Source: Candidatus Anderseniibacteriota bacterium
GTDB taxonomy: Bacteria; Patescibacteriota; JAUYIX01
Length of the DNA: 64,000 nt
Direction of reading: 5' to 3'
NCBI GenBank assembly: GCA_046350855.1
Contig: JAXLZM010000002.1
Location: 142,103-206,102 of the forward strand
The notes under the pieces were generated by a model. The model was not told where the DNA came from. It made no database searches and worked only from the letters and a program-made list of their open reading frames with translations. Position numbers and translations under genes: made by a program. How positions within the stretch are numbered: the stretch's first letter is position 1; each line of letters opens with the position of its first letter. Positions 28,180 to 53,895 of the stretch are shown here, one piece after another.

Positions 28180-28200
28180 AAGGGCATCCTAGCAGACCAA

Positions 28201-28228
28201 TTGTGATCTCGCTGTTAACCGTTATACT
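28201..28228 (+). promoter_or_regulatory. sigma70-like promoter TTGTGA-16-TATACT, 8 nt before the ATG (leaderless-type)
   Basis: -35 at 28201-28206, -10 at 28223-28228, ATG at 28237. Confidence 0.35.
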
Positions 28229-28236
28229 AAAGCGGT

Positions 28237-33339: not shown

Positions 33340-36306
<2,967 letters not shown>

Positions 36307-36317
36307 CACAACTAGAA

Positions 36318-36935: not shown

Positions 36936-36956
36936 TTATTCCTTAACGCTTACGAA

Positions 36957-37304: not shown

Positions 37305-37312
37305 TTGAGCCA

Positions 37313-37852
37313 ATGGTCACAATCATCTTCGAATCACATAGCACAACGACGGACAACGAAAAAGAACTCTCGTCCGGCCACAATGACGTGGGGCTCTCCG
37401 AGTTAGGGATCAAGCAATCCCACGAGCTTGGTGAGAGATATAAAGCTGTTCATGTAGATGCAGTGTTTGCGTCTGATCTAAAGCGAGCCTACAAAACCGG
37501 AGAAATTGCTTTTAAAGGGAGGGGCATCCCAATTATCAAAGACAGGCGTCTCCGCGAGGTAGATTATGGCGAACTCACCCAGCATCCCGGAGAAGAAGTG
37601 AAGAAGCTCAAGCCCGGGTTTATTACAAAACCGTTCCCGGGCGGCGAGAGTTACCAGCAAACTTCCGAGCGCATGAAATCTTTTTTGCAGGATCTGCTCA
37701 AAAAGTACGACGGTAAGACCGTTATGGTTATCGGACATCGCGCAACCCAATACGGTTTAGAGCACTGGATTAACGGTATCCCCTTGGAACAAGTTATCCC
37801 TGCGCCATGGAAGTGGCGGCCGGGTTGGAAGTACGAGCTGAAAAGCCTTTGA
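37313..37852 (+). CDS. histidine phosphatase family protein (phosphoglycerate mutase-like)
   Basis: Family size; SHSTT...HNDVGLSELG near the N-terminus and GHRATQ near the C-terminus. Confidence 0.55.
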   Translation: MVTIIFESHSTTTDNEKELSSGHNDVGLSELGIKQSHELGERYKAVHVDAVFASDLKRAYKTGEIAFKGRGIPIIKDRRLREVDYGELTQHPGEEVKKLKPGFITKPFPGGESYQQTSERMKSFLQDLLKKYDGKTVMVIGHRATQYGLEHWINGIPLEQVIPAPWKWRPGWKYELKSL

Positions 37853-37870
37853 CTTTACAAATAAGAAAAA

Positions 37871-37894
37871 GCACGTTGCCAGGGCGCAACGTGC
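37871..37894. other. perfect 9-bp hairpin GCACGTTGC-CAGGGC-GCAACGTGC flanked by A-runs
   Basis: Read directly; lies at the start of a 456-bp ORF-free region. Confidence 0.3.
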
Positions 37895-38308
37895 AAAAGG
37901 AGAGTGGACAAGGCCCCATTGTACTTAGACGTATTACTTCCCTGAACACACGTCGTCGTCTCGCAAAGCCTCAAAGAGAGTTATAAATAGAGTTCTCTCT
38001 CGACGGTCTCCTGAAGCACAATCTTTTGGCTCAAAGAGTGTGACCGTCTGGCAAACTGCTACAGCGTGCTCTAACACCTCGAGTGGGGACCGTGTCCCAA
38101 AGAAGCAGTTCGTAGTCCTCGCAGGGATGCGAGGGAGCCAGCAGCATGAAGCGAGTGAAGGTGCAGGTGTGGGCCGTAGCTAGGAGCTGCTACTTGCCCT
38201 ACTTGGTCACTGGAAACCGCTCATCGTTCACCTCCTGGTTTCAGTGGCGGGAAAATAGCATACGATTAGCTGATGGTCAAGACCCTCGGTTTTAGGTAGA
38301 GTTTATTC

Positions 38309-39830: not shown

Positions 39831-40175
39831 ATGAAGCGAGCCGGAATCATACTCATCATCGTTGGCGTCTTTGCAACGCTCTGGGGTGCTTACGCGCTTA
39901 TGATGGCGTTTAATGGCTACACGATGGATACGTCGTACCTGGGTCGGGGGACCGGGCTGGGCTATAGCGTCAGTGCGACGACGGATGCCAATGGCAAATT
40001 GGTTCCGATAACACCGGAACAAGAAGCTGCTGCAGCCGCTGAGTATGATGTGGGCTATCAGGCGAACATCAGGCAGCACAAGCTTCGCGGATCGCTAATG
40101 CTCGGCGCTGGTGTCGTCGCCTTAGCGGTGGGTATTGGTCTCACCGCAGCCAGTAAGCGCAAGTCCAAAAAATAG
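39831..40175 (+). CDS. small membrane protein (2 TM)
   Basis: ORF, ATG start. Confidence 0.4.
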   Translation: MKRAGIILIIVGVFATLWGAYALMMAFNGYTMDTSYLGRGTGLGYSVSATTDANGKLVPITPEQEAAAAAEYDVGYQANIRQHKLRGSLMLGAGVVALAVGIGLTAASKRKSKK

Positions 40176-40752
40176 ATTGAAAAAAGTATTGCTCGGTTTA
40201 GAAAGAGGTTCAGTCAAGTTAGTGCCCCACGATCCACGCTGGGTAAGACTTTTTCAAAAGCAAAAGAAAATACTGAAAGACACATTTGGCGATACGATAC
40301 TTGCGATCGAACACGTCGGCAGCACGGCGATTCCCGGCATGCCCGCAAAGCCCATTATCGATATCGATGTGGGTGTTCGCTCAATGAGGGACATTGTGGC
40401 TATGCGTAAAAAGTTTAAAGCCCTAGGCTATCAGCACCGTCCCTTTGTCCCCGGTGTTACCAAGGGCGAACTCAAAAAACAAGAACTCTTTGTGGTTGGG
40501 TCGGGCGCAAAACGCACGCACCATATCCACATTGCGATATTTGGGAGTAACTATTGGAACAATAATATTCTGTTTCGTGATTACCTACGGGCGCATCCTG
40601 CTCGAGCTAAAAAATATGCTGCGCTCAAATGTCAACTTGTAAAAAAGTTTGCTAACGATCGCAACCGCTACACCAAAGCTAAAGAAAAGTTTATTTCTGC
40701 AACAATACAGTTGGCGCAGAAAAGGCATCCCAAACGGGTTGAGACGCCTTAA
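40135..40752 (+). CDS. GrpB-family nucleotidyltransferase-fold protein (TTG start)
   Basis: VGSTAIPGMPAKPIIDIDVGV motif typical of GrpB/UPF0157. Confidence 0.65.
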   Translation: MVSPQPVSASPKNRLKKVLLGLERGSVKLVPHDPRWVRLFQKQKKILKDTFGDTILAIEHVGSTAIPGMPAKPIIDIDVGVRSMRDIVAMRKKFKALGYQHRPFVPGVTKGELKKQELFVVGSGAKRTHHIHIAIFGSNYWNNNILFRDYLRAHPARAKKYAALKCQLVKKFANDRNRYTKAKEKFISATIQLAQKRHPKRVETP

Positions 40753-40904
40753 AAAAGTTAATCTCGAAATTCAGACAGCAGCGGTGTACTTATCCACAGA
40801 CGATAGTCAAAAAGTGGTCATTTTTTAATCTTTTCTTAAGGTTTAACCCGTACAGTCGTGTTGTTCCATTGGAACAGTGCACGTTGACAGCTAGGAGCAT
40901 CAAG

Positions 40905-41444
40905 ATGAAGCAACTCATCGCGGGCAGCCATGCGGAATGCAAATCCCGCATCTGGTTGCTCGACCTGGATCCGATCATGGTCAAGCTCATGGACAAGAAG
41001 GAAGGAAAGGGCTGGACGCTCGAGCAGGCACTGCTTGCGGTCGGGGAGTACCGGCGGTTTCTCTTCCTGACCGTCACGCGTGAGGAGACCATCGTTCCGA
41101 CCGAGTTCGTGGACGCGGTCTGGCACGCTCACATCCTCGACACCATGAAGTACGCCAAGGACTGCGAGGAGATCTTCGGGTTCTTCTTGCACCACTTCCC
41201 GTACTTCGGGATGCGCGGTGAGGAAGACCAGGCCACCCTGCAGTCGACCTTCCGTGCCAGCGCCGGCATCTACGAGGCGGCCTTCGGGCAGCCGTATTAC
41301 GTCGGGCTGAACGGCGCCAACTGCGGCACGTGCGGTCCCAACGCCTGTGGTTCGTGCGCTGGTTCTGGACTGATCCCTCCACAGAAGGACGTCTTTCGGG
41401 ACGTGGTGCGGTCGGACCATCGTCCCGTACTGGCGATTGCCTGA
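40905..41444 (+). CDS. glycine-rich-domain protein (GRDP/DUF1399-like); high-GC, probably horizontally acquired (ORF opens at TTG 40869)
   Basis: VDAVWHAHILDT motif; GC3-rich codon usage unlike neighbours; AGGAG 7 nt before the ATG at 40905. Confidence 0.6.
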   Translation: MKQLIAGSHAECKSRIWLLDLDPIMVKLMDKKEGKGWTLEQALLAVGEYRRFLFLTVTREETIVPTEFVDAVWHAHILDTMKYAKDCEEIFGFFLHHFPYFGMRGEEDQATLQSTFRASAGIYEAAFGQPYYVGLNGANCGTCGPNACGSCAGSGLIPPQKDVFRDVVRSDHRPVLAIA

Positions 41445-41456
41445 AGCAACTCTATT

Positions 41457-41489
41457 GGGGCTTGGATAACATCCGAGCCCCGCTTTTTT
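41457..41489 (+). terminator. intrinsic terminator
   Basis: GGGGCTTGGAT-AAC-ATCCGAGCCCC then GCTTTTTTG. Confidence 0.6.
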
Positions 41490-41523
41490 GAAAAATAGTT
41501 CTTGAATAGTAGTATCAACTTAT

Positions 41524-42129
41524 ATGGGTCAGCCTGTTATTCGAATTTCATACAATCGGCTTCTGGATCCGTTTTTCCGATCCTTTTTTGAATTACAGCA
41601 TGCCGGAACACCAAAAAACTCAACATATACTTCGCCAGAAGTAGTTTTGAAGAAAGTTTCTGAGTTTATCAATGCATGGAAAAAAAGAGAGTCGGTCTTG
41701 GAGTTTATGCAAGAAACGCTCTCGCTAGAGTTTTATCAAAATGCGATTGATGTGCACGTGGTTGGTTTTATTAAGCACGCGATTAGTTCGCCAATGATCA
41801 TTAGCAGTACGAAGTCTGTTGACGCATTTGTTGATTCTCTTACCCACGAACTTTTACATCGGCTTGTGAGTGATAACACAAAGAAAATTCCCGCTGGCAA
41901 GATTCTGCTTAATCTGTATCCAAAGGAATCGCGACTGTGCCGAAATCATATTGTTGTTCATGCGGTACTCAAAAAAATCTATCTCGAGTTTTTTAAAGAG
42001 GCTGAGCGGTTAACCGCTATTCAAGTGCGCGATAAAAAAGCATCTGCATATATGCGTGCCTGGGAGTTAGTCGATACGTTAGGGGCAGATTCTATAATTG
42101 CGCAATTCAAAAAAGGATATCAAAAATAA
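41524..42129 (+). CDS. hypothetical protein with HExxH motif (LTHELLHRL)
   Basis: ORF at the left edge of the low-GC island. Confidence 0.45.
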   Translation: MGQPVIRISYNRLLDPFFRSFFELQHAGTPKNSTYTSPEVVLKKVSEFINAWKKRESVLEFMQETLSLEFYQNAIDVHVVGFIKHAISSPMIISSTKSVDAFVDSLTHELLHRLVSDNTKKIPAGKILLNLYPKESRLCRNHIVVHAVLKKIYLEFFKEAERLTAIQVRDKKASAYMRAWELVDTLGADSIIAQFKKGYQK

Positions 42130-42138
42130 ATGGCGGCA

Positions 42139-43173
42139 TTAGAGCTTTTTGAGCTCGTATTTTGTTCTGCCAGTGTTAATTACTAAGATCTTCTTGCTGG
42201 CTGGCACCTTGTTTTTGAGTTGCAACAAAAGTGCTAAGCCTGCGATACCTGATGGTTCTGCCTCCACGTTTTGTGACTCAGCAAGCGCCATAGCTTGATC
42301 CAAGTATTTTTCCTGAATTTGCTGCACGCCGGATTCCGGTCCGCATAATCCCGCAAAGCGATAAAACTTAATCCACTGTTCATCAAAATGAACAAACGGC
42401 AAATGTGGTGAGTAGAGTTTTTGTGCTTTACTCTCTGGCGAGGTGGTAGTCGCTCCAATAAAGTTGCACTTGCGGAGCTTGTGCACGTTGCCCCTAAAAC
42501 GCGGATCGTGGTGCTCGGTTGTAACCTCGCGCTTGTTGATGTTGAGAATGTTCTCAAACAAGTTGCCCGTGCCGAACGGAATGAAACAGTAGTCTGGAGA
42601 TGCGTTGATGACCTCGTAGCTGAGCCAGTCGTAAAAGCGGGTGGTTGGCGCGAGGGCTTCATTGGAGGTAATGTCGAAGCCGGTTGGATTATTGGTTAAT
42701 GCCAAAATTTCGCGCCACTGGAGGGATTTTCTCGAGAGATCAGTGTCGTAGAGTTCACAGCCGATTTCTTTGAGGCGGCTTTGGATTTTATCGTCGAGGT
42801 GAGAATCGACTAGTACTTTGAGGTGGGGCAGGAGGTATTTGTTGAGCTGCATTTGTATTGCAAAGGCTGCGGTTCCGGATGAAATAATCGACATATGGGG
42901 GAGGGCACCGCGGAGTTCACCTCGTTTTTTGGATTGTAGAAACTCGCGGTAGGTCACAACGATCTCCCAGGCCATGCGATCCTTGTGCGTGCCAGTTGGG
43001 TTTTTGCTCTCATCTTTGAGCCAGACATTTTTGAATCCGGGCACCGTGATGCGGTAGGTCGGTGTGGCGGGAAACTTGGGATCGTCAGCAGGGAACTCTG
43101 GCCTCTGCGGGTCGTTTTCTGAAGCTACAACGATCGAGCGTAGGATTTTGTTTTCTTTGGTCGTAAGGGTCAC
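42139..43173 (-). CDS. PLP-dependent enzyme, fold type II (threonine synthase/cysteine synthase-like)
   Basis: Lys-containing NPTGTHKDR motif and Gly-rich SSGTAAFA phosphate loop. Confidence 0.65.
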   Translation of the reverse strand: MTLTTKENKILRSIVVASENDPQRPEFPADDPKFPATPTYRITVPGFKNVWLKDESKNPTGTHKDRMAWEIVVTYREFLQSKKRGELRGALPHMSIISSGTAAFAIQMQLNKYLLPHLKVLVDSHLDDKIQSRLKEIGCELYDTDLSRKSLQWREILALTNNPTGFDITSNEALAPTTRFYDWLSYEVINASPDYCFIPFGTGNLFENILNINKREVTTEHHDPRFRGNVHKLRKCNFIGATTTSPESKAQKLYSPHLPFVHFDEQWIKFYRFAGLCGPESGVQQIQEKYLDQAMALAESQNVEAEPSGIAGLALLLQLKNKVPASKKILVINTGRTKYELKKL

Positions 43174-43463
43174 TAGCGCAGGATACTTGGCAAAATATCT
43201 TTTGTCTCGTCATTGATAAATGGCTGAACTGCTTCTCGGCATACTTCAAGTGCGCCACGACCAAAGAGCTGTTCATAGTGGAGCACGAGTTCTTTGATAA
43301 CCCGTTTTGGATCCCCAACAACGGCGACATACTTTTTTATGGGATCAAGCTTGATTCCATAAACTAGCGTTGCCTGCTCCCAGGCAAGTGGTCCGACGAT
43401 CTTTGCTTGTGCCTCAATGATAGCGCTGACAATCGCAGAGCTGATTTTTAAGGGCGGAGTCAT
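43173..43463 (-). CDS. small soluble protein, family A, copy 1 (96 aa)
   Basis: Paralog of 44351..44629 (shared ...I(V/I)GP(L/I)AWE(Q/E)AT... and C-terminal LPSIL(R/K)); translationally coupled to the upstream membrane protein. Confidence 0.5.
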   Translation of the reverse strand: MTPPLKISSAIVSAIIEAQAKIVGPLAWEQATLVYGIKLDPIKKYVAVVGDPKRVIKELVLHYEQLFGRGALEVCREAVQPFINDETKDILPSILR

Positions 43464-43472
43464 TGCAGAATC

Positions 43473-44354
43473 TTATTTTTCTATTGACCACGATTTTTCT
43501 TTTGTGGGTGGTACCCTCAGCCTTTTCGGATTGAATTGTGCCAAGCCAAGCCCCAAGATGAAGAAAGTGACCGTGTAAAGAAAATCTGAAATGCTTCCAT
43601 TAAAGTACGATCCTTTGGTCGTCATATAGACGAACAAAAAGTCTGCGAAATACATCATAAAAAAACCAAGCAACAAAATGGGCATTGCCTTTTTAAAGAT
43701 TCCTCCAATGTATTTTTTCGTGAGCTTATACGTTAGAATCGTAAGACTCAATAGGATCGCGTCTCCAATTGGGTAATAGAAATCAAAGAAAAGCTTAGTT
43801 TTGCCGCCTGCCACATCAATGGTTCCATTACGAGCAACTATAAAAAGTAAATAATAAGAAACCAAAATCACAATTGCCGGTAATAGTGTTACTAACAACT
43901 TTCCGCCAGTTTTCTTTACAGCATATTTGGCTCCTGTACTGCGTAGTAGCAGAACAATACCAATGGTCCAGAATAGGGGACATGAGCCGAAAAAGATGTC
44001 CGCCATCGAAGGATAGGGAACCTCGACTCCCTTAAAAAAAAGATAGTAGTTCCACATAATCATGCCCCCGCCGAAGGCCGCTGTACCTATAGAGATAAAT
44101 ATTAGAGAACGACCTATAGAGCTTGACCACCAACCCCATCCACGAGCACTTGCTAGGCCCAAGAAGCCTCCAATAAGGGGAAGGAGTGCGACACCTGTTA
44201 AGTACGGCTTTATTCCGAACTCAAAGAGTTTTCCTTGAAGAACTCGAGCGTTTCCCGCGCCTACAATGTAATAAAGCCAAAAAAGAGTAGTCAGGCCGAA
44301 AATTAGACAAAGAATTATTATTCCTATACTTACGTTTTTTTGATTGTTTTTCAT
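43473..44354 (-). CDS. 8-TM membrane protein, family B, copy 1 (293 aa)
   Basis: Paralog of 44638..45468; shared motifs FG..., PYPS(M/W)(A/G)D(I/V), (F/L)(Y/G)YPIGDA. Confidence 0.55.
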   Translation of the reverse strand: MKNNQKNVSIGIIILCLIFGLTTLFWLYYIVGAGNARVLQGKLFEFGIKPYLTGVALLPLIGGFLGLASARGWGWWSSSIGRSLIFISIGTAAFGGGMIMWNYYLFFKGVEVPYPSMADIFFGSCPLFWTIGIVLLLRSTGAKYAVKKTGGKLLVTLLPAIVILVSYYLLFIVARNGTIDVAGGKTKLFFDFYYPIGDAILLSLTILTYKLTKKYIGGIFKKAMPILLLGFFMMYFADFLFVYMTTKGSYFNGSISDFLYTVTFFILGLGLAQFNPKRLRVPPTKEKSWSIEK

Positions 44355-44629
44355 TTTAGGATGCTTGGTAACAATTCTTTACTTTCTTCATCAATTAGCG
44401 ACTTAACTGCTGCTCGACTAACTTGTCGTGCAGTTAATCCAAACAAAACTTCAAAATGTCGCACAAGTTCCTTTAGAACAACGGGCGCGACCCCAACAAC
44501 TTGAACTTTTTTACTTTGAAGATCAACCAAAAGCCCTGCCGTTTTTGTTGCCTCTTCCCAAGCAATCGGCCCAATAATCTTTGCATGCTCCTTGATGATA
44601 CTTTCTGCCATTTGATCGGCTAAGTCCAT
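44351..44629 (-). CDS. small soluble protein, family A, copy 2 (92 aa)
   Basis: See copy 1. Confidence 0.5.
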   Translation of the reverse strand: MDLADQMAESIIKEHAKIIGPIAWEEATKTAGLLVDLQSKKVQVVGVAPVVLKELVRHFEVLFGLTARQVSRAAVKSLIDEESKELLPSILK

Positions 44630-44637
44630 CGGAGTAT

Positions 44638-45468
44638 TTATTTGACCTCTTTAAAACGCTGCAATGCTACGCCTAATTGTAACAACGCAAGTGTCATTAC
44701 GAAGTAAGCAAAGAAACAAAGGAAATCGACGCTTCCAGCAACATAGTAGGTCCCGCGACCCGCTTGGTATAAAAATGCAAAATCAGTGCAGTATTGCATG
44801 ATAAGAGCAAAGATTAGAAAGAGTATCGGAGCTCGTATGATGCCTCCCAAGAAGTTGCGTGAGAGCGCAAAAACCAGCAAGGCTGCAGAAACATAAATTG
44901 CATCGCCAATCGGGTACCCCAAATCAAGAAAAGTCCGCAATGGTTGCGACCAATCAGGCGTATAACCTCTTAAGAAAAATATAGTAGTTATGCTGAGCAT
45001 AATTAGCGGTATAACGACAGCTAGAGTTTTGCCTTTAAAGAATCGCAATGATAATTCGTTGCGCATTGCTTTTGCTAATGCGATTGCCCCCAACATGTAT
45101 AAAATAACCGTTCCAAAGTAACCAACGTCGCCCCAGGAAGGATATGGAGTCGTAATGTTTTTTACGTAAACGTAATATTCGTACACGGCCTGCCCGATTA
45201 ATTGAAACCCAAATCCAATTGTTAAGAAGAGAAGAGCCCGGCCAAGTTGGCTTTTCCTGCCGCCCCATTTTTTTGCGATCATCAAGCCACAAACTAAGCC
45301 TGGCCCGACAATTAATGGGTAGAGCAGAGTCAAAAATAAAATTTCTACCCCATTCTCGACTCCACGAATATGAATCGTAACCCACCAAATTGCGATTGCT
45401 ACAAAATAGATCGTACAAATTCTTGCGACATAACTTCGTTTGAGGGTCTCGTACAAGCTTTTTATCAT
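44638..45468 (-). CDS. 8-TM membrane protein, family B, copy 2 (276 aa)
   Basis: See copy 1. Confidence 0.55.
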   Translation of the reverse strand: MIKSLYETLKRSYVARICTIYFVAIAIWWVTIHIRGVENGVEILFLTLLYPLIVGPGLVCGLMIAKKWGGRKSQLGRALLFLTIGFGFQLIGQAVYEYYVYVKNITTPYPSWGDVGYFGTVILYMLGAIALAKAMRNELSLRFFKGKTLAVVIPLIMLSITTIFFLRGYTPDWSQPLRTFLDLGYPIGDAIYVSAALLVFALSRNFLGGIIRAPILFLIFALIMQYCTDFAFLYQAGRGTYYVAGSVDFLCFFAYFVMTLALLQLGVALQRFKEVK

Positions 45469-45491
45469 TGACTTATCTTACTTAATGAACC

Positions 45492-46817
45492 TTAAGAAAA
45501 TGTAGAATTCGAGGCCTCTGGTAAAACGGCTCGTAGTACGGTCCTATACTCATCTGCCTCCGGTATCGAGAGTTGGCCTCCGTGCGCACTCAAGATCCAA
45601 TGTGCGATATCGAGCTCAAGTCCTGTGATTCCTGCTTGTCGATCATCGCGCGTAGGTCGAGATTGTTTAATATCCTCTAACAAAACACGAAGCTGCCGTC
45701 CTTGACGTTGCGGGAGTGCGCTAAAAATAAGATCAATAGAATAGCTTGGTTTGGGCTGGTCATGGTGAAGCTCAACTAGCAAATCTTTTGGTGCCAAACG
45801 CAACGCACGCAATAGCAAGAGCTGCAAAAGCTTATATAGTAGTCCGGCATCGCCACGAATGAGGCTCGGCGTCCCTTCTATGAGAGTTGGACGCCAAATC
45901 AGTCGGCGGTTTTGGGTTTGTGCAAAATCCAGTGCGTACTCTACTGCATCGTCGACCAACAGCTCTAAATCAATCGGCTCAGCTTGAACCTGTATCTTGC
46001 CCGCCTCTGCGCGTGATAAATCCAGAATATGATCGATAAATTTCGTCATCCAAGAGACCTCGGCCTGCACTACCTTAAACTCAGCCGAGTCAGTAAGTCG
46101 CTCTTGCAAAGCAAAGGACATTACAACAACAGGGTTTTTGAGATCATGCGCCAACTGATCGAATTGCAAGGCATTATCGTGATCACGCTGATTAAGACGG
46201 TCATTGAGTCGCTGTAATGATTTTGTACTTTGCTGCAGCCTCGCTTTTATCTGTTCTAGCCGCAGCTGCTCATAGCGTCGCGCTTGAGCCAAGTCAAAGA
46301 GTACTGAGAGTTGATCGGCAAAACGTTGCAATGTTCTTCTGTCCCACTCTGTCCACGGGTCACCATTGTGTTTTGATCCAAAACAAAGAACGGCCTTGCG
46401 GTCATTGCCAATGGCTATTTGTAGTTTGGCATTGAGATTAACTGTACCCAGTTCTTGTAGTTCTAACGGAGCTTGAGTTGTAGTGCCAAGTGTTTTAATA
46501 GTCAGGGGAATAAGCTGCGCAAGAGGGGTAACAAGGATAAGCCGCTGTATCAATCCTTCTAGGAGCTCTTGGTAATCAAAAGAGCCCTTATAAATATGCT
46601 CTCGTGCCAATCGTTCTCCAGTTGGCACAAGTTGTGCCATGACAATTGCAATCAGGCTAATCACGAAAACAATACCTATAAGACGAGCGGTTGGGTATTG
46701 AAACAGTAACTTGTTAGTGCTGTTAAGTAGGATATAACTCGCCGGCCCAAGCAGTACAAGTATGCTGAAGTATAAAGCAATATAACGGCTCACGACGACA
46801 AGTAGATAGCGCTTCAT
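45492..46817 (-). CDS. sensor histidine kinase (membrane anchored), canonical H-box
   Basis: N-terminal TM helices; H-box LAHDLKNPV; HATPase_c motifs; 4-bp overlap with the upstream kinase. Confidence 0.8.
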   Translation of the reverse strand: MKRYLLVVVSRYIALYFSILVLLGPASYILLNSTNKLLFQYPTARLIGIVFVISLIAIVMAQLVPTGERLAREHIYKGSFDYQELLEGLIQRLILVTPLAQLIPLTIKTLGTTTQAPLELQELGTVNLNAKLQIAIGNDRKAVLCFGSKHNGDPWTEWDRRTLQRFADQLSVLFDLAQARRYEQLRLEQIKARLQQSTKSLQRLNDRLNQRDHDNALQFDQLAHDLKNPVVVMSFALQERLTDSAEFKVVQAEVSWMTKFIDHILDLSRAEAGKIQVQAEPIDLELLVDDAVEYALDFAQTQNRRLIWRPTLIEGTPSLIRGDAGLLYKLLQLLLLRALRLAPKDLLVELHHDQPKPSYSIDLIFSALPQRQGRQLRVLLEDIKQSRPTRDDRQAGITGLELDIAHWILSAHGGQLSIPEADEYRTVLRAVLPEASNSTFS

Positions 46818-48265
46818 ACAGAAATTCTTGTACTAACGTGTAATTCAACTAAAAACTGATTGCCTTGTGGTTCAACTCCGTCTTCCATTATTACAATCTG
46901 GGCATTGCCGCCATAGGCCTTTGCTAGCTTACGAACAATAGAAAGGCCAAGGCCGGTGCCTTTTTGGGTTACGCTACTGGCAGTACGGTAAAACGGTTCA
47001 AAAATCAGATCTTGCTCGTCTGGCGAAATTGGCTGGTTTTGATCCGTTACTTTAACCAAAAGACGTCCTGGAGAAACCGTAATACTACAGTCTATTTGAG
47101 TGTTCTTGATCGAATACTTGATAGCGTTTTCTATGAGATTATCGAGAATTTCTTCAAGATGGAGCGGCTTGATCGAAACCTGAGAGCACTTAGGTGAAGC
47201 TTTTACCGTAAGCGAAACGCTTTTTCGTGAGGCCAACTTTGCAAAACGAGTGTGTAACTTCTCAAGAAACATATCTATGTCGATCCATTCAACAAGGGGA
47301 GCGTCAACGATCTCAGTGCCACCAGATTGCTCGAACTCCTTGCTTAAGCTGACTAATTTTGCAACGGATTCCGTGATGGATTGTTGTGCTTCTTTGGGCA
47401 ACTCAATGGCACCACTTTGCACACCCGAAAGAACCACCGTTAACGGCGTGCGTAGTTCTCGGGCAACCGTTTTGAAAAATGCGGTACGATCTTGTAATTT
47501 TTTGTACAAGTTGGCGTTAGCTTGATGCAGCTGTTCTGTTTGTTGTTCAGTCACTAGCTGAACTTCAGCGACATGGTTTTTTCTTGTTCTTTGTAGTTGC
47601 TCTACCTCGGTTTTTGCAGCATACAGTGCGATATCTTTTTGGATACTCTCCACTTCTAGTGGAGTGAAAGCGATATTAAACTTCTTATGTCCCAATACGA
47701 AATAACCGTCTAAAGCAGGCAGGGCAAGAGAGACACGTTGCGGCCCCGTACCCGTTATGGTTCTAAAATGCTGGCCTAGTATGTAGTCCTTACTAATATC
47801 TATCGGATTCGCAAAACGCGTAGATGCAGCTTGTTCTTGTAGGCGGGCAGTTATTTCGTTGAACGCAATACTGCCTTCTGTTAGCGGTGCTTTGATTTTT
47901 CTATTAACCCAGACAACCCCAGTCAGCTGGTACTTTTCTACCAGTGATTGCAAAAAGCTTTTACGATTTGGCTGAATCTCGTGTTGTTTGTAGTCGCGTG
48001 TTATTTGACGACCCCAAAACCTATTCAGCAGTTGCTGGAGCACAATGACGATAAATAAGCCGGCGATAATTTGACTAAATACAGTTGTGCTTGAGTTTTG
48101 TTCAGCCTGATTACTGAGCCCTACCTTAGGCCAAAAAATAATAGTGATCAGGACGACACTTGTGATCGTCGCGAGTACCACATGCCTTGAGAACGTAACA
48201 GCGGTATTAATCGTCCCGTAACGTAGAACAACAAGACAAAGCGAATACAACAGCAAGAGACTCAC
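46814..48265 (-). CDS. sensor histidine kinase-like protein with Arg replacing the phospho-acceptor His (ARELRTPL); N-terminus possibly longer or frameshifted
   Basis: HisKA-like box VARELRTPLTVV, where the consensus is hELRTPL; intact N, G1, G2 boxes (LIENAIKYS, GTGLGLSIV). Confidence 0.7.
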   Translation of the reverse strand: MSLLLLYSLCLVVLRYGTINTAVTFSRHVVLATITSVVLITIIFWPKVGLSNQAEQNSSTTVFSQIIAGLFIVIVLQQLLNRFWGRQITRDYKQHEIQPNRKSFLQSLVEKYQLTGVVWVNRKIKAPLTEGSIAFNEITARLQEQAASTRFANPIDISKDYILGQHFRTITGTGPQRVSLALPALDGYFVLGHKKFNIAFTPLEVESIQKDIALYAAKTEVEQLQRTRKNHVAEVQLVTEQQTEQLHQANANLYKKLQDRTAFFKTVARELRTPLTVVLSGVQSGAIELPKEAQQSITESVAKLVSLSKEFEQSGGTEIVDAPLVEWIDIDMFLEKLHTRFAKLASRKSVSLTVKASPKCSQVSIKPLHLEEILDNLIENAIKYSIKNTQIDCSITVSPGRLLVKVTDQNQPISPDEQDLIFEPFYRTASSVTQKGTGLGLSIVRKLAKAYGGNAQIVIMEDGVEPQGNQFLVELHVSTRISV

Positions 48266-49139
48266 AGAAAGATAGGAATAGTAGTAGGCGTAAAAATCTG
48301 CGATACCAAATGCTGAAATTACTGAAAAAGCGACTGCGTTTACTACGATCGCCAGAAAAAGCGATGCCGATAATTTTCATTGGTCGCCTATCGTTCAGCG
48401 ACATCTTTTTATGTTTGATAAAGAGCGCTATGCTGCAAGTGCCCAAAAGGATGGATAGGCTACTTGTGAAGCACAAAGTAAGGCAACTCGGTTCTGGTGA
48501 CAATATTTTGTATCGAGTAGTCATACTGCAAAACCAGGCCTTGCGGCAGTAAGTTCAGAATAATGGTGCCAGCATTAGTAATGGTGGAAAGTCCGACAAT
48601 AAAAAACGCGATACAGTGCGACTCGAATACGGAGGAAACTTGCCAATAAAAACAAATAAAAAATACAAAAACTCCAATAGGGGACGACGTGCTTAGCGAC
48701 CAAGCCAAAGATATAATCCGGTGGCTGGTGGTAGCCTGATCGTCGGCGGAATGTTAAGAGCGATCCACAGGACGAACGCCAAACAAAAAAGCCTGCCCAT
48801 TGGGAGGGGTAGCGATTTTTGGATTAGACTTTAAATAGCGCAATCGTGAGTAAAGCCGCAACTATCAAAAACGGCGAAAGCGATTATTGCTTGTGTAACG
48901 CTAATACAGTTCAAGCAAGATCCTGAAAGGCTAGACGATCATGGCTTTATCGTCAAGGACTGCAATGAAAGAAAAAATTCATCCTGAAACCGTTCAAAAA
49001 TAGAGAGCGGATGCTGGGTACGGTAATAACCATCTTTATTTTTGAATTTGCGCCGAGCAGGACCAAACTGACAAAAACTTAAGAAAAGGTGAAATCGCTA
49101 TATTTTTGTGTAAAATAGCTCCACGACAAAATCCTGAAT

Positions 49140-50064
49140 CTTGTACGAACTGTTAAGCCTACCCAAGTGCCCTTATCTGAGCTCCCACGACAAAAGCTTG
49201 AACTAACCGATCGACCAGGCATAGAGAGACTGCGAAAAGAGTTTCCGGCGTACTCAGATTTCAATTTTACAAGCCTCTGGTGCTGGATACTAAGAACGAT
49301 CTTACTTTCTCGGTTGTCGAAGGAAATCTTGCAGTAAAGTTTAATGATTATCTAACTGGAGATCCGTTTATTCGCATTCTTAGGTAAAAATCAAGCAGAG
49401 GCCGCAGAAAGGCTACTTCCGAACGGCAGCAGATAGAGGAAGCCATAAGGTTGAATTGCGTTTAGCGCCTGCTGAGTCTGTACAGTCGTTGGATGCTAGT
49501 AAGTATTATATCGCACCAGATGAAAACAACTTTGACTATCTCTTATCAACTGAAGAACTATCCTCATTTAAAGGAAATAAGTGGCGTGCGAAGAGTAACT
49601 TTGTTAACCGCTTCAAAAAAATGTATCGATCAAAAGTCATAGAGTTGGATCTGGGAGACCCATCGACTGAAAAAAAAATTAAAGGTTTATTCGGACTTTG
49701 GGCACAAAAAAAGGCACCCAACTCTAAAGATACAAAAAATGAAGGTATCGCAATTTCAAGGTTGTTGCAGTTCTCAAAACACTTTAAAACTGAATCAATA
49801 GGTTTAGAAATAGAAGGTGAACTGGTTGGTTTTTCAATAAATGAAATAACCTCCCCATCATCAGCTTTATTACATTTTGAAAAGGCTAATCTTAATTTCG
49901 TAGGCGTTTATGCTTACCTCATGCAACAAACCGCAGTCCATTTGCGCAATAAAGGATGTACGATATTAAACTATGAGCAAGATCTTGGGCTGCAAGGCTT
50001 AAAGAAAGCAAAGGCCTCTTATTTCCCCGTATCTTTTTTAAAAAAATACGTTGTTAGCAAATGA
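49140..50064 (+). pseudogene. DUF2156 (MprF C-terminal lysyltransferase-like domain) gene remnant, multiple frame disruptions
   Basis: Family assignment is from pattern memory. N-terminal fragment ...RLRKEFPAYSDFNFTSLWCW... at ~49140-49300 in one frame, two further fragments in other frames, then a 202-aa ORF 49456..50064. Confidence 0.45.
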
Positions 50065-50140
50065 CGCTAGTAAGGAATGCATACAATAATGTAAAATATT
50101 TGCACGAGCATGTGGCACATATTTAAGAGACTCGTTTCTC

Positions 50141-50968
50141 GTGATTGGGCGGCAAAACAGCGTTGCTTATTTTTTAGCGCTGTTTGCATGGTGGTTTCTG
50201 TTACAAGTTTTGTATCAAGGACAAGATGCTGAAAAAAACTTAATTTGGGCGGCCACATATCAGCTCGTTGCTTTGCTTGGTGCTATTTTGGGGAATTTTT
50301 GTTTCGCGGTCTTGGGGTGGAACTAAAAGTGTTTTTGGTAGAGCAATTGGTGCGTTTGCGCTGGGTCTACTTTTCCAAACTATTGGACAAAGCGTCTTTA
50401 GTTTTTACAATTCCATTTTAAAAGTCGAAATTCCCTTATCCTCACTAGCAGATGTCGGTTTTTTTGGAAGCATTCCGTTGCATGTATATGGCGCAATTTC
50501 TTTAGGTAGAGCTTCGGGCGCCGTCGTTTCTCTGCGAAGATTCCGCAACCAACTTTCAGCCTTTTATTACCTGCGGCAGCGCTTTTGATTTCTTATTTAT
50601 TTTTCTTGAGGTTATGAGTTTGATTGGGAGTTCACCATTGCGGGTTTTTCTAGATTTTGCATATCCATTGGGACAAGCAACTTTATGTTTCTTTCGCATT
50701 GCTTGTTTTTATCATTACAAAAAATTCTCGGCGGCATTATGCGTCCCAGGGTACTTTTATTTTGATTGCCCTTTGCAGTACAGTACTTGGCCGATTATAC
50801 TTTCTTTTTCATATTTTCAGATTGATGCAACGAAGTGCAGGACTCTATTTATTTAGCTGCTTATTTGTTTATGTCGTTGGCATTGTTGCAAATAAATCGC
50901 GTTGGCATCCAAAGAGCTGTGATCAGTTTTTGCGAAGTTACAAGACCAGATTGCTGCTAAGATCATAA
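50141..50968 (+). pseudogene. decayed third copy of family B membrane protein
   Basis: Four overlapping ORF fragments that align segment by segment with 44638..45468 (GQSVFSFYN / GQAVYEYY; ADVGFFGS / GDVGYFGT; DFAYPLGQA / DLGYPIGDA). Confidence 0.5.
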
Positions 50969-51211
50969 AAGACCAAGAACTTATAATTGGTCCTTTCGCG
51001 TGGTCCGAAGCAAAGAAGGTGAAGGGCCGTGAGGGTCAACCCAAACACTAATCAAGCAGAAATCTTAGGAGCACCAAAAGTCGTTTTAGAGTCCTTGGTC
51101 AAAAGATACGCGCGCTTATTTGGTGATGCTTCTATCGAAGTTTGCAAGGATGCAGCAAGACCATTTATTGGAAAGTTTCCAAAGGCTGAGTTGCCAGCAA
51201 GTCTTCAATAG
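50923..51211 (+). pseudogene. decayed third copy of family A small protein (start codon lost, internal frameshift/stop at ~51049)
   Basis: ...QDQIAAKIIKDQELIIGPFAWSEAKKV... then stop; C-terminal part in another frame ...LVKRYARLFGDASIEVCKDAARPFIGKFPKAELPASLQ. Confidence 0.45.
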
Positions 51212-51229
51212 TTTTTAGGCTTCTAACTC

Positions 51230-52615
51230 ATGAAGGACCGCAAGAACTCAAAAAGCAGTTCTGATTCCGTCAGTACAGGATCACAGCAGATAAACCGTGA
51301 GCTCTATAAGCGGAACGCCGAATTGGCAGTACGCAACAAAACCCTGGCTCTCCTACGTAAGCTGGATGAGATTTCTTTACGGGCAATTGGGATTCAACCT
51401 ACGGCTCAGGAGATTGCTGGAGCGATCTCCGTCGAGTTTGGGTACGAGATTGTCTCAGTAGCAATCGCCATGCCTGAGAAAAAGGAGTTGCGCTGGCTCG
51501 CGCTCGCGTCTTCGGTACCGACCTACTCTGCTCTTTTTGGACAAGTTATTCCCGGTGAGTCAGATTTTTTGGCAAAAGCGCCTGCTAAAAAACTCGAGGG
51601 TCAGCTCCGCAAGGACACGTTTGTTAAGGGTATCGACAGTTTATTTCCCGATGACCTCAAGCAAAAAATTGGGGCTATCAAGGGTGACGCGATCTCCAGT
51701 ACGCTAGTTTACCCACTTGTTTTTGAGGAAAAGCCGATTGGCATTATTACGTTCAGCGCCATTCGAAATCTGCACGAACTCACTAAATACGAGCACGAAT
51801 CGATCGAGGGCATTGTCAGCCTAACCTCGCTCGCTCTCTACAAGGCAAAGCTTTTTGAGGACTTACAAACGACAACCGAGCAGTTACGCGAGGCCAACCA
51901 CCGACTTAAAGAGCTCATGGAAATCAAGACTCAGTTTTTGCATATTGCATCTCACCAATTGCGCACACCGCTCACGAGTCTCCGCGGCTTCTTAGACATG
52001 CAGGCGAGCGGGGATTTTGACAAGCTCACGCCGGATCGACGTAAAGAGCTCCAAAAAACGATGGCCATGGCTGGCGACCAACTCAATGCGCTGGTCAATG
52101 ATCTTCTTAATGCCATGGAACTTGAAGGTGGTGCGCCAAACATCAAGCCTATCGCAACTGACGTCTGGAAAGTTATCGAGGAAGCCGTCGTCACACTCCA
52201 GATCGCTTTCGACAAAAAGGGCCTCAAACTTGTTGCAAACAAGCCCGCCATTAAATTGCCGCAGATTCTTGCAGATGCCTCGTACCTCCGTCAGGTCTTC
52301 CTCAACTCTCTCGACAACGCGATGAAGTATACGCCCAAAGGCTCAGTCACGATTAGCGCCAAAGTAGCTGGCAAAAACATCGCTATTGACGTCACCGATA
52401 CCGGTATTGGTATCGACCCGCGCGACAAGCCCAAGCTCTTTGGTAAGTTCGTCCGCGGTGGCAATTCGGAGACGCAGCACACCACAGGCAGTGGTCTAGG
52501 ACTCTTTATCATGAAGCAAATCGTCCAGCAGCATCACGGTACGATTGAACTTAGGAGCGATGGCGTAGGCAAGGGGACGACCGTGCACATCGAGCTTCCA
52601 ATCCTTAAAGTCTAA
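51230..52615 (+). CDS. cytoplasmic sensor histidine kinase (GAF-HisKA-HATPase)
   Basis: H-box ASHQLRTPLTSL, N/G boxes, N-terminal GAF-like region. Confidence 0.8.
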   Translation: MKDRKNSKSSSDSVSTGSQQINRELYKRNAELAVRNKTLALLRKLDEISLRAIGIQPTAQEIAGAISVEFGYEIVSVAIAMPEKKELRWLALASSVPTYSALFGQVIPGESDFLAKAPAKKLEGQLRKDTFVKGIDSLFPDDLKQKIGAIKGDAISSTLVYPLVFEEKPIGIITFSAIRNLHELTKYEHESIEGIVSLTSLALYKAKLFEDLQTTTEQLREANHRLKELMEIKTQFLHIASHQLRTPLTSLRGFLDMQASGDFDKLTPDRRKELQKTMAMAGDQLNALVNDLLNAMELEGGAPNIKPIATDVWKVIEEAVVTLQIAFDKKGLKLVANKPAIKLPQILADASYLRQVFLNSLDNAMKYTPKGSVTISAKVAGKNIAIDVTDTGIGIDPRDKPKLFGKFVRGGNSETQHTTGSGLGLFIMKQIVQQHHGTIELRSDGVGKGTTVHIELPILKV

Positions 52616-52618
52616 GCA

Positions 52619-52966
52619 ATGAAGGCCTGGGGTAAATCGATCGCAATCGACTTATATCAATGCGATCACAAAAAAATGATCGATCCGGAAGGGCTTAAGA
52701 CCTTTATCGCTGAACTTATTAAGTCGGTAGACATGGTTGCACATGGACCGTGTTACGTAGAGCGCTTTGGCGAAGGCAAACTCTTGGGGTACTCGGCTAT
52801 GCAATTTATTGAAACTTCTGCAATTACTGTCCATCTAGACGAAGTCGATAGCCGTGCCTTTATTGATCTCTTTAGCTGCAAACAATTTGATGCAAAAAAA
52901 CCAACCGAACTTGCCATCAAATATTTTGGCGCAAAGCAACACAAGTTGACTGAGCTCAACCGCTAG
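52619..52966 (+). CDS. S-adenosylmethionine decarboxylase-like pyruvoyl enzyme (SpeH-type, small form)
   Basis: 115 aa; ...GYSAMQFIETSAITVHLDE... resembles the SpeH self-cleavage region (ES/TS). Confidence 0.55.
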   Translation: MKAWGKSIAIDLYQCDHKKMIDPEGLKTFIAELIKSVDMVAHGPCYVERFGEGKLLGYSAMQFIETSAITVHLDEVDSRAFIDLFSCKQFDAKKPTELAIKYFGAKQHKLTELNR

Positions 52967-52974
52967 CAGATAGT

Positions 52975-53895
52975 GTGGCCATGAATTGGCTGCTCCTCGC
53001 CGTTATCCCACCGCTGCTGTATGCGGTCGTAAACCACTTTGATAAGTATCTCGTGCAGAGATATTTCAAGGGAGCGAGTGTTGGTGCGGTACTTATTTTT
53101 TCGGCGCTCATCGGGATTTTTGTCGCGATTCCTATTGGCATTTTTGTTCCCGAAGTTTTTGACTTGCCTGCTCGGCACTCCGCTCTCATCGTCGCAAACG
53201 GATTTTTGTATCTGTTGGCCAGCCTCCCATACTTTTATGCCCTCTCGAAAGACGAAGCCTCCGTCGTTGTACCTGTTTTTCAGCTCGTGCCCTTCTTTAT
53301 TCTGCTTTTTGCTTTTATATTTTTGGGAGAGACCATTAGTCTAAACGGCCTTCTCGGTGGCGCAGTTGTTGTTTTGGGAGCGGTGTTGATTTCGTTAGAG
53401 CTATCCCACAAAAAAGCTAAGTTCAAACAGAGCGTTTTTTGGCTGATGGTGCTGTCATCCTCACTTTTTGCGCTTAACTTTGTGCTCTTCAAGAATTTAA
53501 ACATCGACAGCACTTTTTGGATCACAAACTTTTGGGAATATGTCGGTTTTGTACTTTTTGCTGCTTTTGCGCTGGTCTGTATCCCGCCATACCGAAGACA
53601 ATTCTTTTCTGTTTTCAAACAAAACAAAAAAACGGTACTCGCGCTTAACGGCATCAACGAAATAATCGCAGTTGCAGCCAAGGCTTCGTTTAACTTTGCG
53701 TCGCTTTTAGCCCCGGTTGCACTCGTTTCTTTTGTTGGCGGGCTTCAACCGCTATTCGTTTTTCTTATTGGAATAGCACTGACGCTGTTCTTCCCTAAAA
53801 TTAGTAAAGAAAACATCGACGCTCGGCATCTAATTCAAAAAATAGTCGCAATTTTGGTGATTTTGGTTGGCGTTTGGATGCTGAGTTCAGCCTAG
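52975..53895 (+). CDS. DMT-superfamily transporter (two EamA domains)
   Basis: 10 TM helices in two repeats. Confidence 0.75.
   Translation: MAMNWLLLAVIPPLLYAVVNHFDKYLVQRYFKGASVGAVLIFSALIGIFVAIPIGIFVPEVFDLPARHSALIVANGFLYLLASLPYFYALSKDEASVVVPVFQLVPFFILLFAFIFLGETISLNGLLGGAVVVLGAVLISLELSHKKAKFKQSVFWLMVLSSSLFALNFVLFKNLNIDSTFWITNFWEYVGFVLFAAFALVCIPPYRRQFFSVFKQNKKTVLALNGINEIIAVAAKASFNFASLLAPVALVSFVGGLQPLFVFLIGIALTLFFPKISKENIDARHLIQKIVAILVILVGVWMLSSA

What the first reader, a model, noticed from the sequence alone, without database searches (positions are those of the whole stretch)
43173..45468. Tandemly repeated two-gene module (8-TM membrane protein B + ~92-aa soluble protein A), with a third decayed copy, inside a histidine-kinase operon
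Two back-to-back copies of [B, 276/293 aa, 8 TM, conserved PYPS(M/W)xD and YPIGDA motifs] + [A, 92/96 aa, conserved IGP(I/L)AWE(E/Q)AT and C-terminal LPSIL(K/R)] sit directly downstream of two tandem sensor kinases on the minus strand. Stop/start codons overlap (43173; 44351/44354; 46814/46817), so this looks like one operon. A third B+A copy at 50141..51211 on the plus strand is fragmented by frameshifts and has lost its start codon. I do not recognise either protein as a known family. The repeated pairing is consistent with a sensor, export or processing membrane partner and a cognate small protein. Possible roles are a precursor/processing pair, a partner-switching pair, or a kinase accessory module.
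Basis: partly seen in the sequence, partly recalled or inferred. Interest (0 to 1): 0.75.

Follow-up and report, generated by a model that had tools for sequence, protein, structure and literature searches.

The report
Three-piece split sensor kinase of CPR bacteria
The repeated membrane-protein and small-protein gene pair is real, and it belongs to an undescribed module found across the tiny "candidate phyla radiation" bacteria, in which membrane sensor, connector and histidine kinase are usually three genes and occasionally one fused protein.

Summary
Two intact B+A pairs (B 276/293 aa with 8 TM helices; A 92/96 aa) lie in a tight seven-gene minus-strand operon: HK1-HK2-B2-A2-B1-A1-PLP enzyme. 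The pairs are old paralogues (B 31% identity, A 46%).

Neither protein matches Pfam, NCBIfam, PADLOC or any solved structure, but both belong to large families. B has 4840 cluster representatives and A has more than 1100 proteins. All named records among the 80 best genome loci are Patescibacteria (CPR).

In those loci the order LPG_synthase_C - B - A - histidine kinase is strongly conserved. A follows or is fused to B in 73 of 80 cases, and a kinase follows A in 61 of 67.

Natural fusions decide the reading. They include B-A proteins, TrmB-B, NB-ARC-B, and one 796-aa protein with B-A-coiled coil-GAF-HisKA-HATPase in gene order. B-A-HK is therefore a sensor kinase split into three genes.

The "decayed third copy" sits at the canonical conserved locus. 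Its decay is probably an assembly artefact. An independent assembly is 100% identical on both flanks, differs at 108 positions (45 gap openings) only there, and has intact ORFs.

HK1 lacks the phospho-acceptor His, and HK2 has a degenerate ATPase domain.

The ligand is unknown. I rate this a new variant of a known kind, of moderately high interest.

The parts
46814..48265 (-). HK1: membrane-anchored histidine-kinase-like protein with HisKA and a strong HATPase_c. The H-box His is replaced by Arg (ARELRTPL) and the G1 box is atypical (DQNQP). The true N-terminus probably lies about 110 nt further upstream (520 aa in the independent assembly).
   Evidence: domains; H-box and G1 alignment; 520-aa version, 4 hydrophobic segments
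45492..46817 (-). HK2: membrane-anchored kinase paralogue. It keeps the H-box His (AHDLKNP), but the ATPase domain is degenerate (N-box Asn replaced by Arg, G1 box lost). Its start overlaps the HK1 stop.
   Evidence: HisKA 4e-6, HATPase_c only 0.027; (3 hydrophobic segments)
44638..45468 (-). B2: 276-aa, 8-TM membrane protein of the undescribed B family, close to the canonical CPR type (45-51% identity to the nearest relatives).
44351..44629 (-). A2: 92-aa cytoplasmic connector protein of the undescribed A family.
43473..44354 (-). B1: 293-aa divergent B paralogue, at most 38% identical to any other B examined. Its start overlaps the A2 stop.
43173..43463 (-). A1: 96-aa A paralogue. Its stop overlaps the start of the PLP enzyme.
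42139..43173 (-). PLP-dependent fold-type II enzyme (PALP). It is the last gene of the operon and is translationally coupled to A1. The same B-A-PALP junction occurs in a relative.
49456..50064 (+). LPG_synthase_C (PF09924) gene, the conserved upstream neighbour of B across CPR. It is truncated to 202 aa in the window but is 301 aa in the independent assembly.
50126..50968 (+). B3: the B gene at the canonical syntenic position. It is broken by frameshifts and stops in this window sequence. Its first 154 aa are intact in the independent assembly, which ends there.
50938..51211 (+). A3: the A gene at the canonical position, with one frameshift near 51027 in this window sequence. This stretch is not covered by the independent contigs.
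51230..52615 (+). HK3: canonical soluble kinase of the module. It has an N-terminal coiled-coil motif NRELYKRNAELAVRNKTLALLRKL, a GAF-like region, HisKA and HATPase_c, with all catalytic boxes intact and no TM segment.
52619..53895 (+). AdoMet_dc (52619-52966) and an EamA transporter (52975-53895), recurrent neighbours of the module in CPR genomes.

Best explanation
B, A and the adjacent histidine kinase are the three parts of one sensor kinase encoded as separate genes. This module is conserved across Patescibacteria (CPR).

B is an 8-TM, N-in/C-in membrane receptor. Its invariant polar and aromatic residues (D114, D182, D229, Y99, Y109, Y185, Y234, W29, Q93 and the PYPS loop) all lie in the outer half of the helix bundle. 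That placement suggests an extracytoplasmic or outer-leaflet ligand pocket. Two Gly-rich cytoplasmic loops (WGG and LGG) face the cytoplasm.

A is a small folded cytoplasmic domain. It docks between the C-terminus of B and the N-terminal coiled coil of the kinase. It would pass the conformational signal to the GAF-DHp-CA core, which then phosphorylates a stand-alone receiver protein.

This genome has three such sets within 11 kb. One is the canonical LPG_synthase_C-B3-A3-HK3 locus. The other two belong to an extra operon, HK1-HK2-B2-A2-B1-A1-PALP. In that operon the two membrane-anchored kinases are complementarily degenerate: HK1 has no acceptor His, and HK2 has a degenerate ATPase domain. 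They probably work as a heterodimer, each served by one B-A pair.

Shown: gene order, the fusions, the topology constraints, and where the conserved residues lie. Inferred: physical contacts, direction of signal flow, the HK1/HK2 heterodimer, and the nature of the ligand.
For: (1) Synteny in 80 evaluable B genes from CPR genomes. A follows B in 69 cases (median gap 3 nt) and is fused to it in 4. A kinase follows A in 61 of 67 cases (median gap 22 nt).

(2) Rosetta-stone fusions. B-A proteins of about 384 aa occur in L013, L036 and L084, and many B-family representatives are 364-387 aa long, the size of a B-A fusion. P0237 (796 aa) is B(6-264)-A-coiled coil-GAF-HisKA-HATPase, in the same order as the genes. 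P0190 is B-A plus a C-terminal extension, and P0288 is B-A-MazG-like.

(3) B behaves as a portable membrane input module. It is fused C-terminally to TrmB HTH regulators (L006, P0172) and to NB-ARC STAND ATPases (L011, P0232, P0263).

(4) Topology. Cytoplasmic domains sit on both the N- and the C-terminus of B, and the model has 8 TM helices. Both ends are therefore inside, and A is cytoplasmic. A has no hydrophobic segment.

(5) Canonical kinases are mostly soluble: 37 of 55 have no TM segment. They share the N-terminal motif that directly follows A in the fusion. Without B they would lack a membrane input.

(6) Both models are confident (pLDDT 93.6 and 92.3), so these are real folded proteins. 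The invariant columns are listed.

(7) Stand-alone receiver genes lie within 6 kb in 38 of 89 sources, often directly after the kinase.
Against: No experiment exists, and no complex prediction could be run. Contact between A and B, or between A and the kinase, is inferred only from fusions and gene order.

No receiver gene lies anywhere in this 64-kb window.

LPG_synthase_C is almost as tightly linked to B as the kinase is (67 of 76 cases). A role for B in lipid handling therefore cannot be excluded.

HK1 and HK2 have their own TM segments, so in the extra operon B is not needed simply to anchor the kinase.

The ligand is unknown.
Confidence: 0.72

Rival explanations
1. B is a lipid flippase or transporter that works with the neighbouring LPG_synthase_C enzyme. 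This would be an MprF split into separate genes, with synthase and 8-TM flippase apart. A would be a regulatory subunit, and the kinase would only regulate or accompany this envelope-modification locus.
For: LPG_synthase_C lies within 900 nt upstream of B in 67 of 76 loci. From general knowledge, MprF combines this synthase domain with an N-terminal multi-TM flippase. EamA transporter and polyamine genes recur nearby.
Confidence: 0.12
2. B is an intramembrane enzyme (protease or transferase), and A is its substrate or precursor, processed or exported in response to kinase signalling.
For: The pairing of a small protein with a polytopic membrane protein, the strictly conserved C-terminal LPxxLK motif in A, and the conserved Asp residues in B helices.
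Against: A is a compact, confidently folded domain conserved along its whole length. It has no leader/core division and no signal peptide. It occurs covalently between B and the kinase in the fusions. B lacks any His/Glu/Ser catalytic signature, and it gives no hit to CAAX, rhomboid, exosortase or any other Pfam or NCBIfam family.
Confidence: 0.04
3. The locus really is decaying. The canonical B3-A3 set has been pseudogenised in this strain and replaced functionally by the extra HK1-HK2-B2-A2-B1-A1 operon.
For: The window sequence shows several frameshifts and stops in B3, one in A3, a truncated LPG_synthase_C, and PYPS changed to PLSS. Extra paralogous sets that could compensate are present. 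The stretch carrying A3 (50570-51446) is not covered by the independent contigs.
Against: The independent assembly of the same organism has intact ORFs wherever it overlaps. It differs from the window only inside 48234-50569 (108 differences, 45 gap openings) and is identical over 9.6 kb of flanks. The damage also hits HK1's N-terminus and the intergenic DNA, which points to sequence error rather than selection-free decay of one gene.
Confidence: 0.15

Closest known systems
Sensor histidine kinases that rely on a separate membrane protein for input (e.g. BceS with the BceAB transporter, LiaS with LiaF, UhpB with UhpC, DcuS with DctA/DcuB, WalK with YycH/YycI). These examples are recalled from general knowledge and were not tested here.
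   Same: A kinase core receives its signal from a separately encoded polytopic membrane partner in the same operon. The partner is genetically inseparable from the kinase.
   Different: B and A show no sequence relationship to any of those accessory proteins (no Pfam or NCBIfam hit). Here the canonical kinase is soluble and a third, small connector protein is obligatory. Natural fusions show that the three genes are pieces of one kinase rather than a kinase plus a co-opted transporter.
Membrane-embedded sensor domains of bacterial signalling proteins (MASE1-9, 7TMR-DISM, 5TMR-LYT, 7TM-HD)
   Same: A polytopic all-helical module without a large periplasmic domain, combined with varied cytoplasmic output domains. 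For B these are HisKA/HATPase, TrmB HTH, NB-ARC and MazG-like.
   Different: No Pfam model of these families matches B at E<=1. B is usually a free-standing protein rather than the N-terminus of its effector. All named records among the 80 best genome loci are Patescibacteria.
GPCR / microbial-rhodopsin type 7-TM bundles
   Different: Sequence identity is 5-13%, rmsd is about 4 A, Foldseek TM-scores are below 0.5 and no hit has E<=1e-3. B has eight helices with both termini inside. This is generic bundle similarity and is no evidence of homology.
MprF (lysyl-phosphatidylglycerol synthase/flippase)
   Same: The conserved upstream neighbour carries the MprF C-terminal synthase domain PF09924, and B has about as many TM helices as the MprF flippase part.
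   Different: B has no detectable similarity to the MprF TM region. The synthase gene's orientation relative to B is variable. B is fused to signalling domains, never (in the set examined) to PF09924.

Membership tests
Two-component sensor kinase system (as a split kinase) | HisKA (DHp) and HATPase_c (CA) domains with intact H, N, G1 and G2 boxes in the linked kinase | tested here: met
   HK3 has HisKA 6.5e-13 and HATPase_c 9e-29, with SHQLRTPL, DNAMKY, DTGIG and GSGLGL all present. HK1 and HK2 are each only partly intact.
Two-component sensor kinase system (as a split kinase) | B and A are physically part of the kinase input, shown by covalent fusion in some genomes and fixed gene order in others | tested here: met
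   P0237 is B-A-GAF-HisKA-HATPase. B-A fusions occur in L013, L036 and L084. Gene-order counts are 73/80 and 61/67.
Two-component sensor kinase system (as a split kinase) | A cognate response regulator | tested here: inconclusive
   Stand-alone receiver genes lie within 6 kb in 38 of 89 sources, several directly after the kinase. None is found in this 64-kb window.
Known membrane sensor domains (MASE, 7TMR-DISM, 5TMR-LYT) and CAAX protease / exosortase / rhomboid | A match to the family profile | tested here: not met
   Pfam gives nothing for B2 and only a 13-bit spurious hit for B1 at E<=1. NCBIfam and PADLOC give nothing. A PDB sequence-profile search gives no hit at E<=10.
MprF flippase / LPG_synthase_TM | Sequence or structural similarity to the MprF transmembrane region | tested here: not met
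GPCR / rhodopsin 7-TM superfamily | Seven-helix bundle with significant structural superposition and an N-out/C-in topology | tested here: not met
HAMP / PAS / GAF / H-NOX type signal-transducing domains (for A) | A profile or fold match | tested here: not met
Pseudogene (third copy) | The disruptions reproduce in independent sequence data from the same organism | tested here: not met
   The Logan contig L087 has intact ORFs over the overlapping part, and the differences are confined to 48234-50569. The part from 50570 to 51446 could not be checked.

The most novel reading that the evidence does not exclude
B/A/HK is the principal and ancestral environmental sensor of CPR bacteria. It would be a receptor built on an 8-TM bundle with an outer-leaflet pocket lined by three Asp and several Tyr/Trp residues. 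This pocket would detect a cationic envelope or host-derived signal, such as polyamines or aminoacylated lipid head groups, in keeping with the conserved AdoMet_dc/PvlArgDC/agmatinase, EamA and LPG_synthase_C neighbours. The signal would pass through a previously unseen connector fold (A). This would make the module a handle on how epibiotic ultra-small bacteria perceive their hosts or their own envelope.
Probability: 0.2. Interest if true: 0.85.

Novelty: new variant of a known kind. Interest (0 to 1): 0.66.

Why it matters
CPR/Patescibacteria have very few histidine kinases: about 0.29 per 100 genes, the lowest among bacteria in one survey (PMC10805038). A kinase module conserved from Microgenomates through Parcubacteria to Saccharibacteria is therefore likely to be one of their core sensing devices. 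Neither its membrane receptor nor its connector domain is in any domain database I searched.

Recognising B-A-HK as one split kinase has several consequences:
- It gives functional context to two large families of 'hypothetical proteins' (thousands of sequences).
- It supplies a natural experiment in how transmembrane signalling can be divided among three polypeptides.
- It points to a candidate ligand pocket that could be tested by mutagenesis in the few cultivable Saccharibacteria.
- It links sensing to aminoacyl-lipid and polyamine genes that may shape the cell surface of epibionts.

There is also a practical warning. The apparent pseudogenes in this MAG are probably sequence errors.

Tried and rejected
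- Pfam, NCBIfam and PADLOC scans of A and B found nothing.
- PDB sequence-profile searches with the A and B alignments found nothing meaningful.
- The AlphaFold DB fold library was unavailable.
- The promoter/terminator consensus scan of 41400-54200 gave counts close to shuffled expectation (12 against 18.2±3.5 promoter-like sites; 22 against 14.5±4.1 terminator-like sites) and no convincing terminator inside the operon, so it is uninformative.
- An exact-product look-up of HK3, meant to recover an independent copy of B3-A3, found no record. The AdoMet_dc look-up gave a contig that starts inside HK3, so 50570-51446 remains unverified.
- Six literature searches on CPR or Saccharibacteria kinases found no description of this module.
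- An internal 4+4 TM duplication in B is suggested only weakly (hhalign P 0.0023, probability 12.6%), and I make no claim for it.
- The precursor/processing and toxin/defence readings were considered and rejected for the reasons given under the rival explanations.
Full report
**What is in the window**

On the minus strand, reading 5' to 3', the genes are:
- HK1 (46814-48265)
- HK2 (45492-46817)
- B2 (44638-45468, 276 aa)
- A2 (44351-44629, 92 aa)
- B1 (43473-44354, 293 aa)
- A1 (43173-43463, 96 aa)
- a PLP-dependent enzyme (42139-43173, Pfam PALP 1.7e-15)

The junctions are overlaps or gaps of at most 23 nt, so a single operon is the natural reading. A consensus promoter/terminator scan adds nothing either way.

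B1 and B2 are 31% identical (E 4e-32), and A1 and A2 are 46% identical (E 1e-24). The quoted motifs are present. According to the database record of the identical B2 protein, the window comes from a Candidatus Andersenbacteria MAG, which belongs to the CPR/Patescibacteria.

**Neither protein belongs to a described family, but both families are large**

Pfam, NCBIfam and PADLOC give no credible hit for A or B. Profile searches of all PDB sequences are empty for B and meaningless for A.

- A word-indexed search found 47 B relatives.
- An exhaustive profile search of 1.84 billion cluster representatives found 4840 at E<=1e-3 and 324 at E<=1e-30.
- A profile of A found 1179 proteins, none with a Pfam domain.
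- A scan of one genome per GTDB species found 286 genomes encoding B. Every named record among the 80 best loci is a Patescibacteria lineage: Microgenomates groups, Parcubacteria groups and Saccharibacteria. The remainder carry generic or evidently mistaken labels.

**Conserved neighbourhood**

I searched six-frame ORFs of 85 loci with the window's own proteins. Gene calls from three direct look-ups agree. The canonical order is (EamA) - LPG_synthase_C (PF09924) - B - A - histidine kinase.

| Test | Count | Median gap |
|---|---|---|
| A follows B | 69 of 80 evaluable B genes | 3 nt |
| A fused to B | 4 of 80 | - |
| Kinase follows A | 61 of 67 | 22 nt |
| LPG_synthase_C within 900 nt upstream of B (either orientation) | 67 of 76 | - |

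The kinases at this position are mostly soluble: 37 of 55 have no hydrophobic segment. They share an N-terminal motif, N-x-E-L-Y-x-R-N-x-E-L-A-x-x-N-K-T-L-x-L-L-R, followed by a GAF-like region, HisKA and HATPase_c. Stand-alone receiver genes lie within 6 kb in 38 of 89 sources, several immediately after the kinase.

**Fusions decide the interpretation**

- Four ORFs of about 384 aa in the loci are B-A fusions. Many B-family representatives are 364-387 aa long, the size expected of such fusions.
- B also occurs at the C-terminus of TrmB-type HTH regulators (L006, P0172) and of NB-ARC STAND ATPases (L011, P0232, P0263).
- B occurs in tandem with a second B domain (P0174; P0172 and three other representatives also show two matched stretches), and as B-A-MazG-like (P0288).
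- Most telling is P0237 (796 aa). It reads B (6-264), then an unmistakable A domain (QLAQRIIEEQERVVGPLAWEEAQQV...), then the coiled-coil motif (NLYRHNLELATKNKTLALLRQL), GAF, HisKA and HATPase_c. This is the exact order of the three genes.

B, A and the kinase are therefore pieces of one signalling protein that most CPR genomes encode as three genes.

**Anatomy**

The AlphaFold2 model of B2 is very confident (pLDDT 93.6, pTM 0.91) and has eight long helices. Cytoplasmic domains are fused to the N-terminus (HTH, NB-ARC) and to the C-terminus (A-GAF-kinase). Both ends must therefore be inside, which the positive-inside distribution of the loops supports.

On this topology, the invariant and near-invariant residues fall as follows:
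- In the outer half of the bundle or in outer loops: W29, Y50, Q93, Y99, P108-Y109-P110-S111, D114, L181-D182-x-G184-Y185-P186, D229, F232 and Y234.
- In cytoplasmic loops: W68-G69-G70 and L207-G208-G209.

This is the pattern expected of a receptor with an outward-facing pocket and an inward-facing coupling surface. The pocket placement is an inference from topology and has not been measured on coordinates.

**The 'third, decayed copy'**

tblastn confirms that the window sequence at 50126-51211 encodes a B and an A broken by several frame changes and stops, with PYPS changed to PLSS. Two facts change its meaning.

1. It sits at the canonical, syntenic position. LPG_synthase_C (49456-50064) lies upstream; HK3 (51230-52615), AdoMet_dc (52619-52966, PF02675) and EamA (52975-53895) lie downstream. 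It is the ancestral set, and the two intact pairs are the extras.

2. Independent Logan contigs from SRR26348421 disagree with the window only here.
   - L087 is 100% identical to window 41609-48233, but shows 108 differences with 45 gap openings across 48234-50569.
   - L088 is 100% identical to 51447-54422.
   - In L087, LPG_synthase_C is 301 aa (full Pfam coverage), HK1 is 520 aa with four hydrophobic segments, and the first 154 aa of B3 are in frame with an intact PYPSLAD motif.

A patch with 4.6% divergence and dozens of indels, inside flanks with no difference at all, damaging three genes and the spacer alike, is best explained by local sequence error in the MAG contig. The 50570-51446 stretch, which holds the end of B3 and all of A3, could not be checked.

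**The extra operon**

B2 is close to the canonical type, at 45-51% identity to its nearest relatives. B1 is at most 38% identical to anything examined.

A relative (L086) carries an HK2-like kinase, one B, one A, the same PLP enzyme and the same 200-aa neighbour. The second pair is therefore lineage-specific, and the PLP enzyme link belongs to this sublineage only. It matched no other locus among the 85 searched.

Alignment of the kinases shows that HK1 has ARELRTPL where the H-box His should be, and a G1 box reading DQNQP. HK2 keeps the His (AHDLKNP) but has lost the N-box Asn and the G1 box. HK3 is canonical throughout.

One kinase without an acceptor and one without a working ATPase, translationally coupled and followed by two B-A pairs, suggests a heterodimer. 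In it, HK1's catalytic domain would phosphorylate HK2's His, and each subunit would have its own B-A input. This is inference only.

**Mechanism proposed**

1. A signal is perceived in the outer half of B.
2. Movement of the bundle is transmitted through the Gly-rich cytoplasmic loops to A.
3. In the fusion, A sits about ten residues before the kinase's signalling helix, and it biases the coiled coil and the GAF-DHp-CA core.
4. The phosphoryl group goes to a single-domain receiver.

The recurrent neighbours are an aminoacyl-phosphatidylglycerol-synthase-like enzyme, an EamA exporter and polyamine enzymes (AdoMet_dc here; PvlArgDC, agmatinase-like and deoxyhypusine-synthase-like genes elsewhere). 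Together with the Asp/Tyr-rich pocket, they make a cationic envelope-related ligand an attractive but untested guess.

**Rivals**

- *Lipid flippase partner of LPG_synthase_C.* This fits the synteny. It does not fit the variable orientation of that gene, the lack of any similarity to MprF or to transporters, or the fusions to regulators and a kinase.
- *Enzyme-substrate pair.* This is contradicted by A being a conserved folded domain placed between B and the kinase.
- *Real pseudogenisation of the canonical set.* This remains possible (about 15%) until reads are mapped.

**Novelty and interest**

Sensor kinases that depend on separately encoded membrane partners are well known, so the kind is not new. 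What is new:
- both protein families;
- the obligatory three-part split, with a dedicated connector domain;
- its breadth across CPR, a group with exceptionally few kinases (0.29 per 100 genes, PMC10805038);
- the conserved linkage to lipid-aminoacylation and polyamine genes.

Six literature searches found no description of it, though the searchable library is incomplete. I rate it a new variant of a known kind, with interest 0.66.

Noticed in passing
window 46814-48265 (HK1) and 45492-46817 (HK2): The two kinases are complementarily degenerate. HK1 has Arg in place of the phospho-acceptor His (ARELRTPL) and a G1 box reading DQNQP. HK2 keeps the His but has lost the N-box Asn and the G1 box. 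HK3 is fully canonical. This suggests an obligate heterodimer or a pseudokinase partner.
   Followed up: partly
window 48234 to about 51400: This patch of the MAG contig differs from an independent short-read assembly of the same organism at 108 positions (45 gap openings). The flanks, 6.6 kb and 3.0 kb, are 100% identical. The patch truncates LPG_synthase_C and HK1 and breaks B3/A3, and is probably local assembly or consensus error.
   Followed up: partly
window 40001-54000: G+C falls to 41-49% across the whole signalling cluster, against about 53-58% in most of the window. Shorter dips to 46% occur at 28001-30000 and 36001-38000. I did not establish whether this marks an island or only local composition.
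   Followed up: no
window 52619-53895; L001, L003, L004: Polyamine-pathway genes and an EamA transporter recur next to the LPG_synthase_C-B-A-HK module in distant CPR lineages. Here the gene is AdoMet_dc. Elsewhere they are pyruvoyl arginine decarboxylase, an arginase/agmatinase family gene, a deoxyhypusine-synthase-like gene and an Orn/Arg decarboxylase.
   Followed up: partly
window 42139-43173 (-); L086 2109-3143: A divergent PLP-dependent fold-type II enzyme is translationally coupled to the last A gene, both here and in a relative. It has only weak threonine-synthase/cysteine-synthase similarity, and it matched no other locus among the 85 searched. Its substrate and its link to signalling are unknown.
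   Followed up: partly
L011 1155-3185; L006 913-2556 (-); P0172, P0232, P0263, P0288, P0174: The B domain is combined with NB-ARC STAND ATPases, TrmB HTH regulators, a MazG-like domain and a second B domain. It is therefore a portable membrane module used well beyond the kinase context.
   Followed up: partly
B2 residues 8-131 vs 142-265 (window 44638-45468): There is a weak signal for an internal 4+4 TM duplication in B. It aligns WGG with LGG, PYPSxGD with GGxND, and YG with GYP (hhalign P 0.0023, probability 12.6%).
   Followed up: partly
whole window 1-64000: No receiver-domain ORF of 50 aa or more was detected anywhere in the 64-kb window, despite three kinases. In relatives such as L007, one or two stand-alone receivers directly follow the canonical kinase.
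   Followed up: partly
window 41524-42129 (+) and L086 3154-3756 (-): A 200-aa protein with no Pfam or NCBIfam hit is conserved next to the PLP enzyme in both genomes, convergent with the operon.
   Followed up: no
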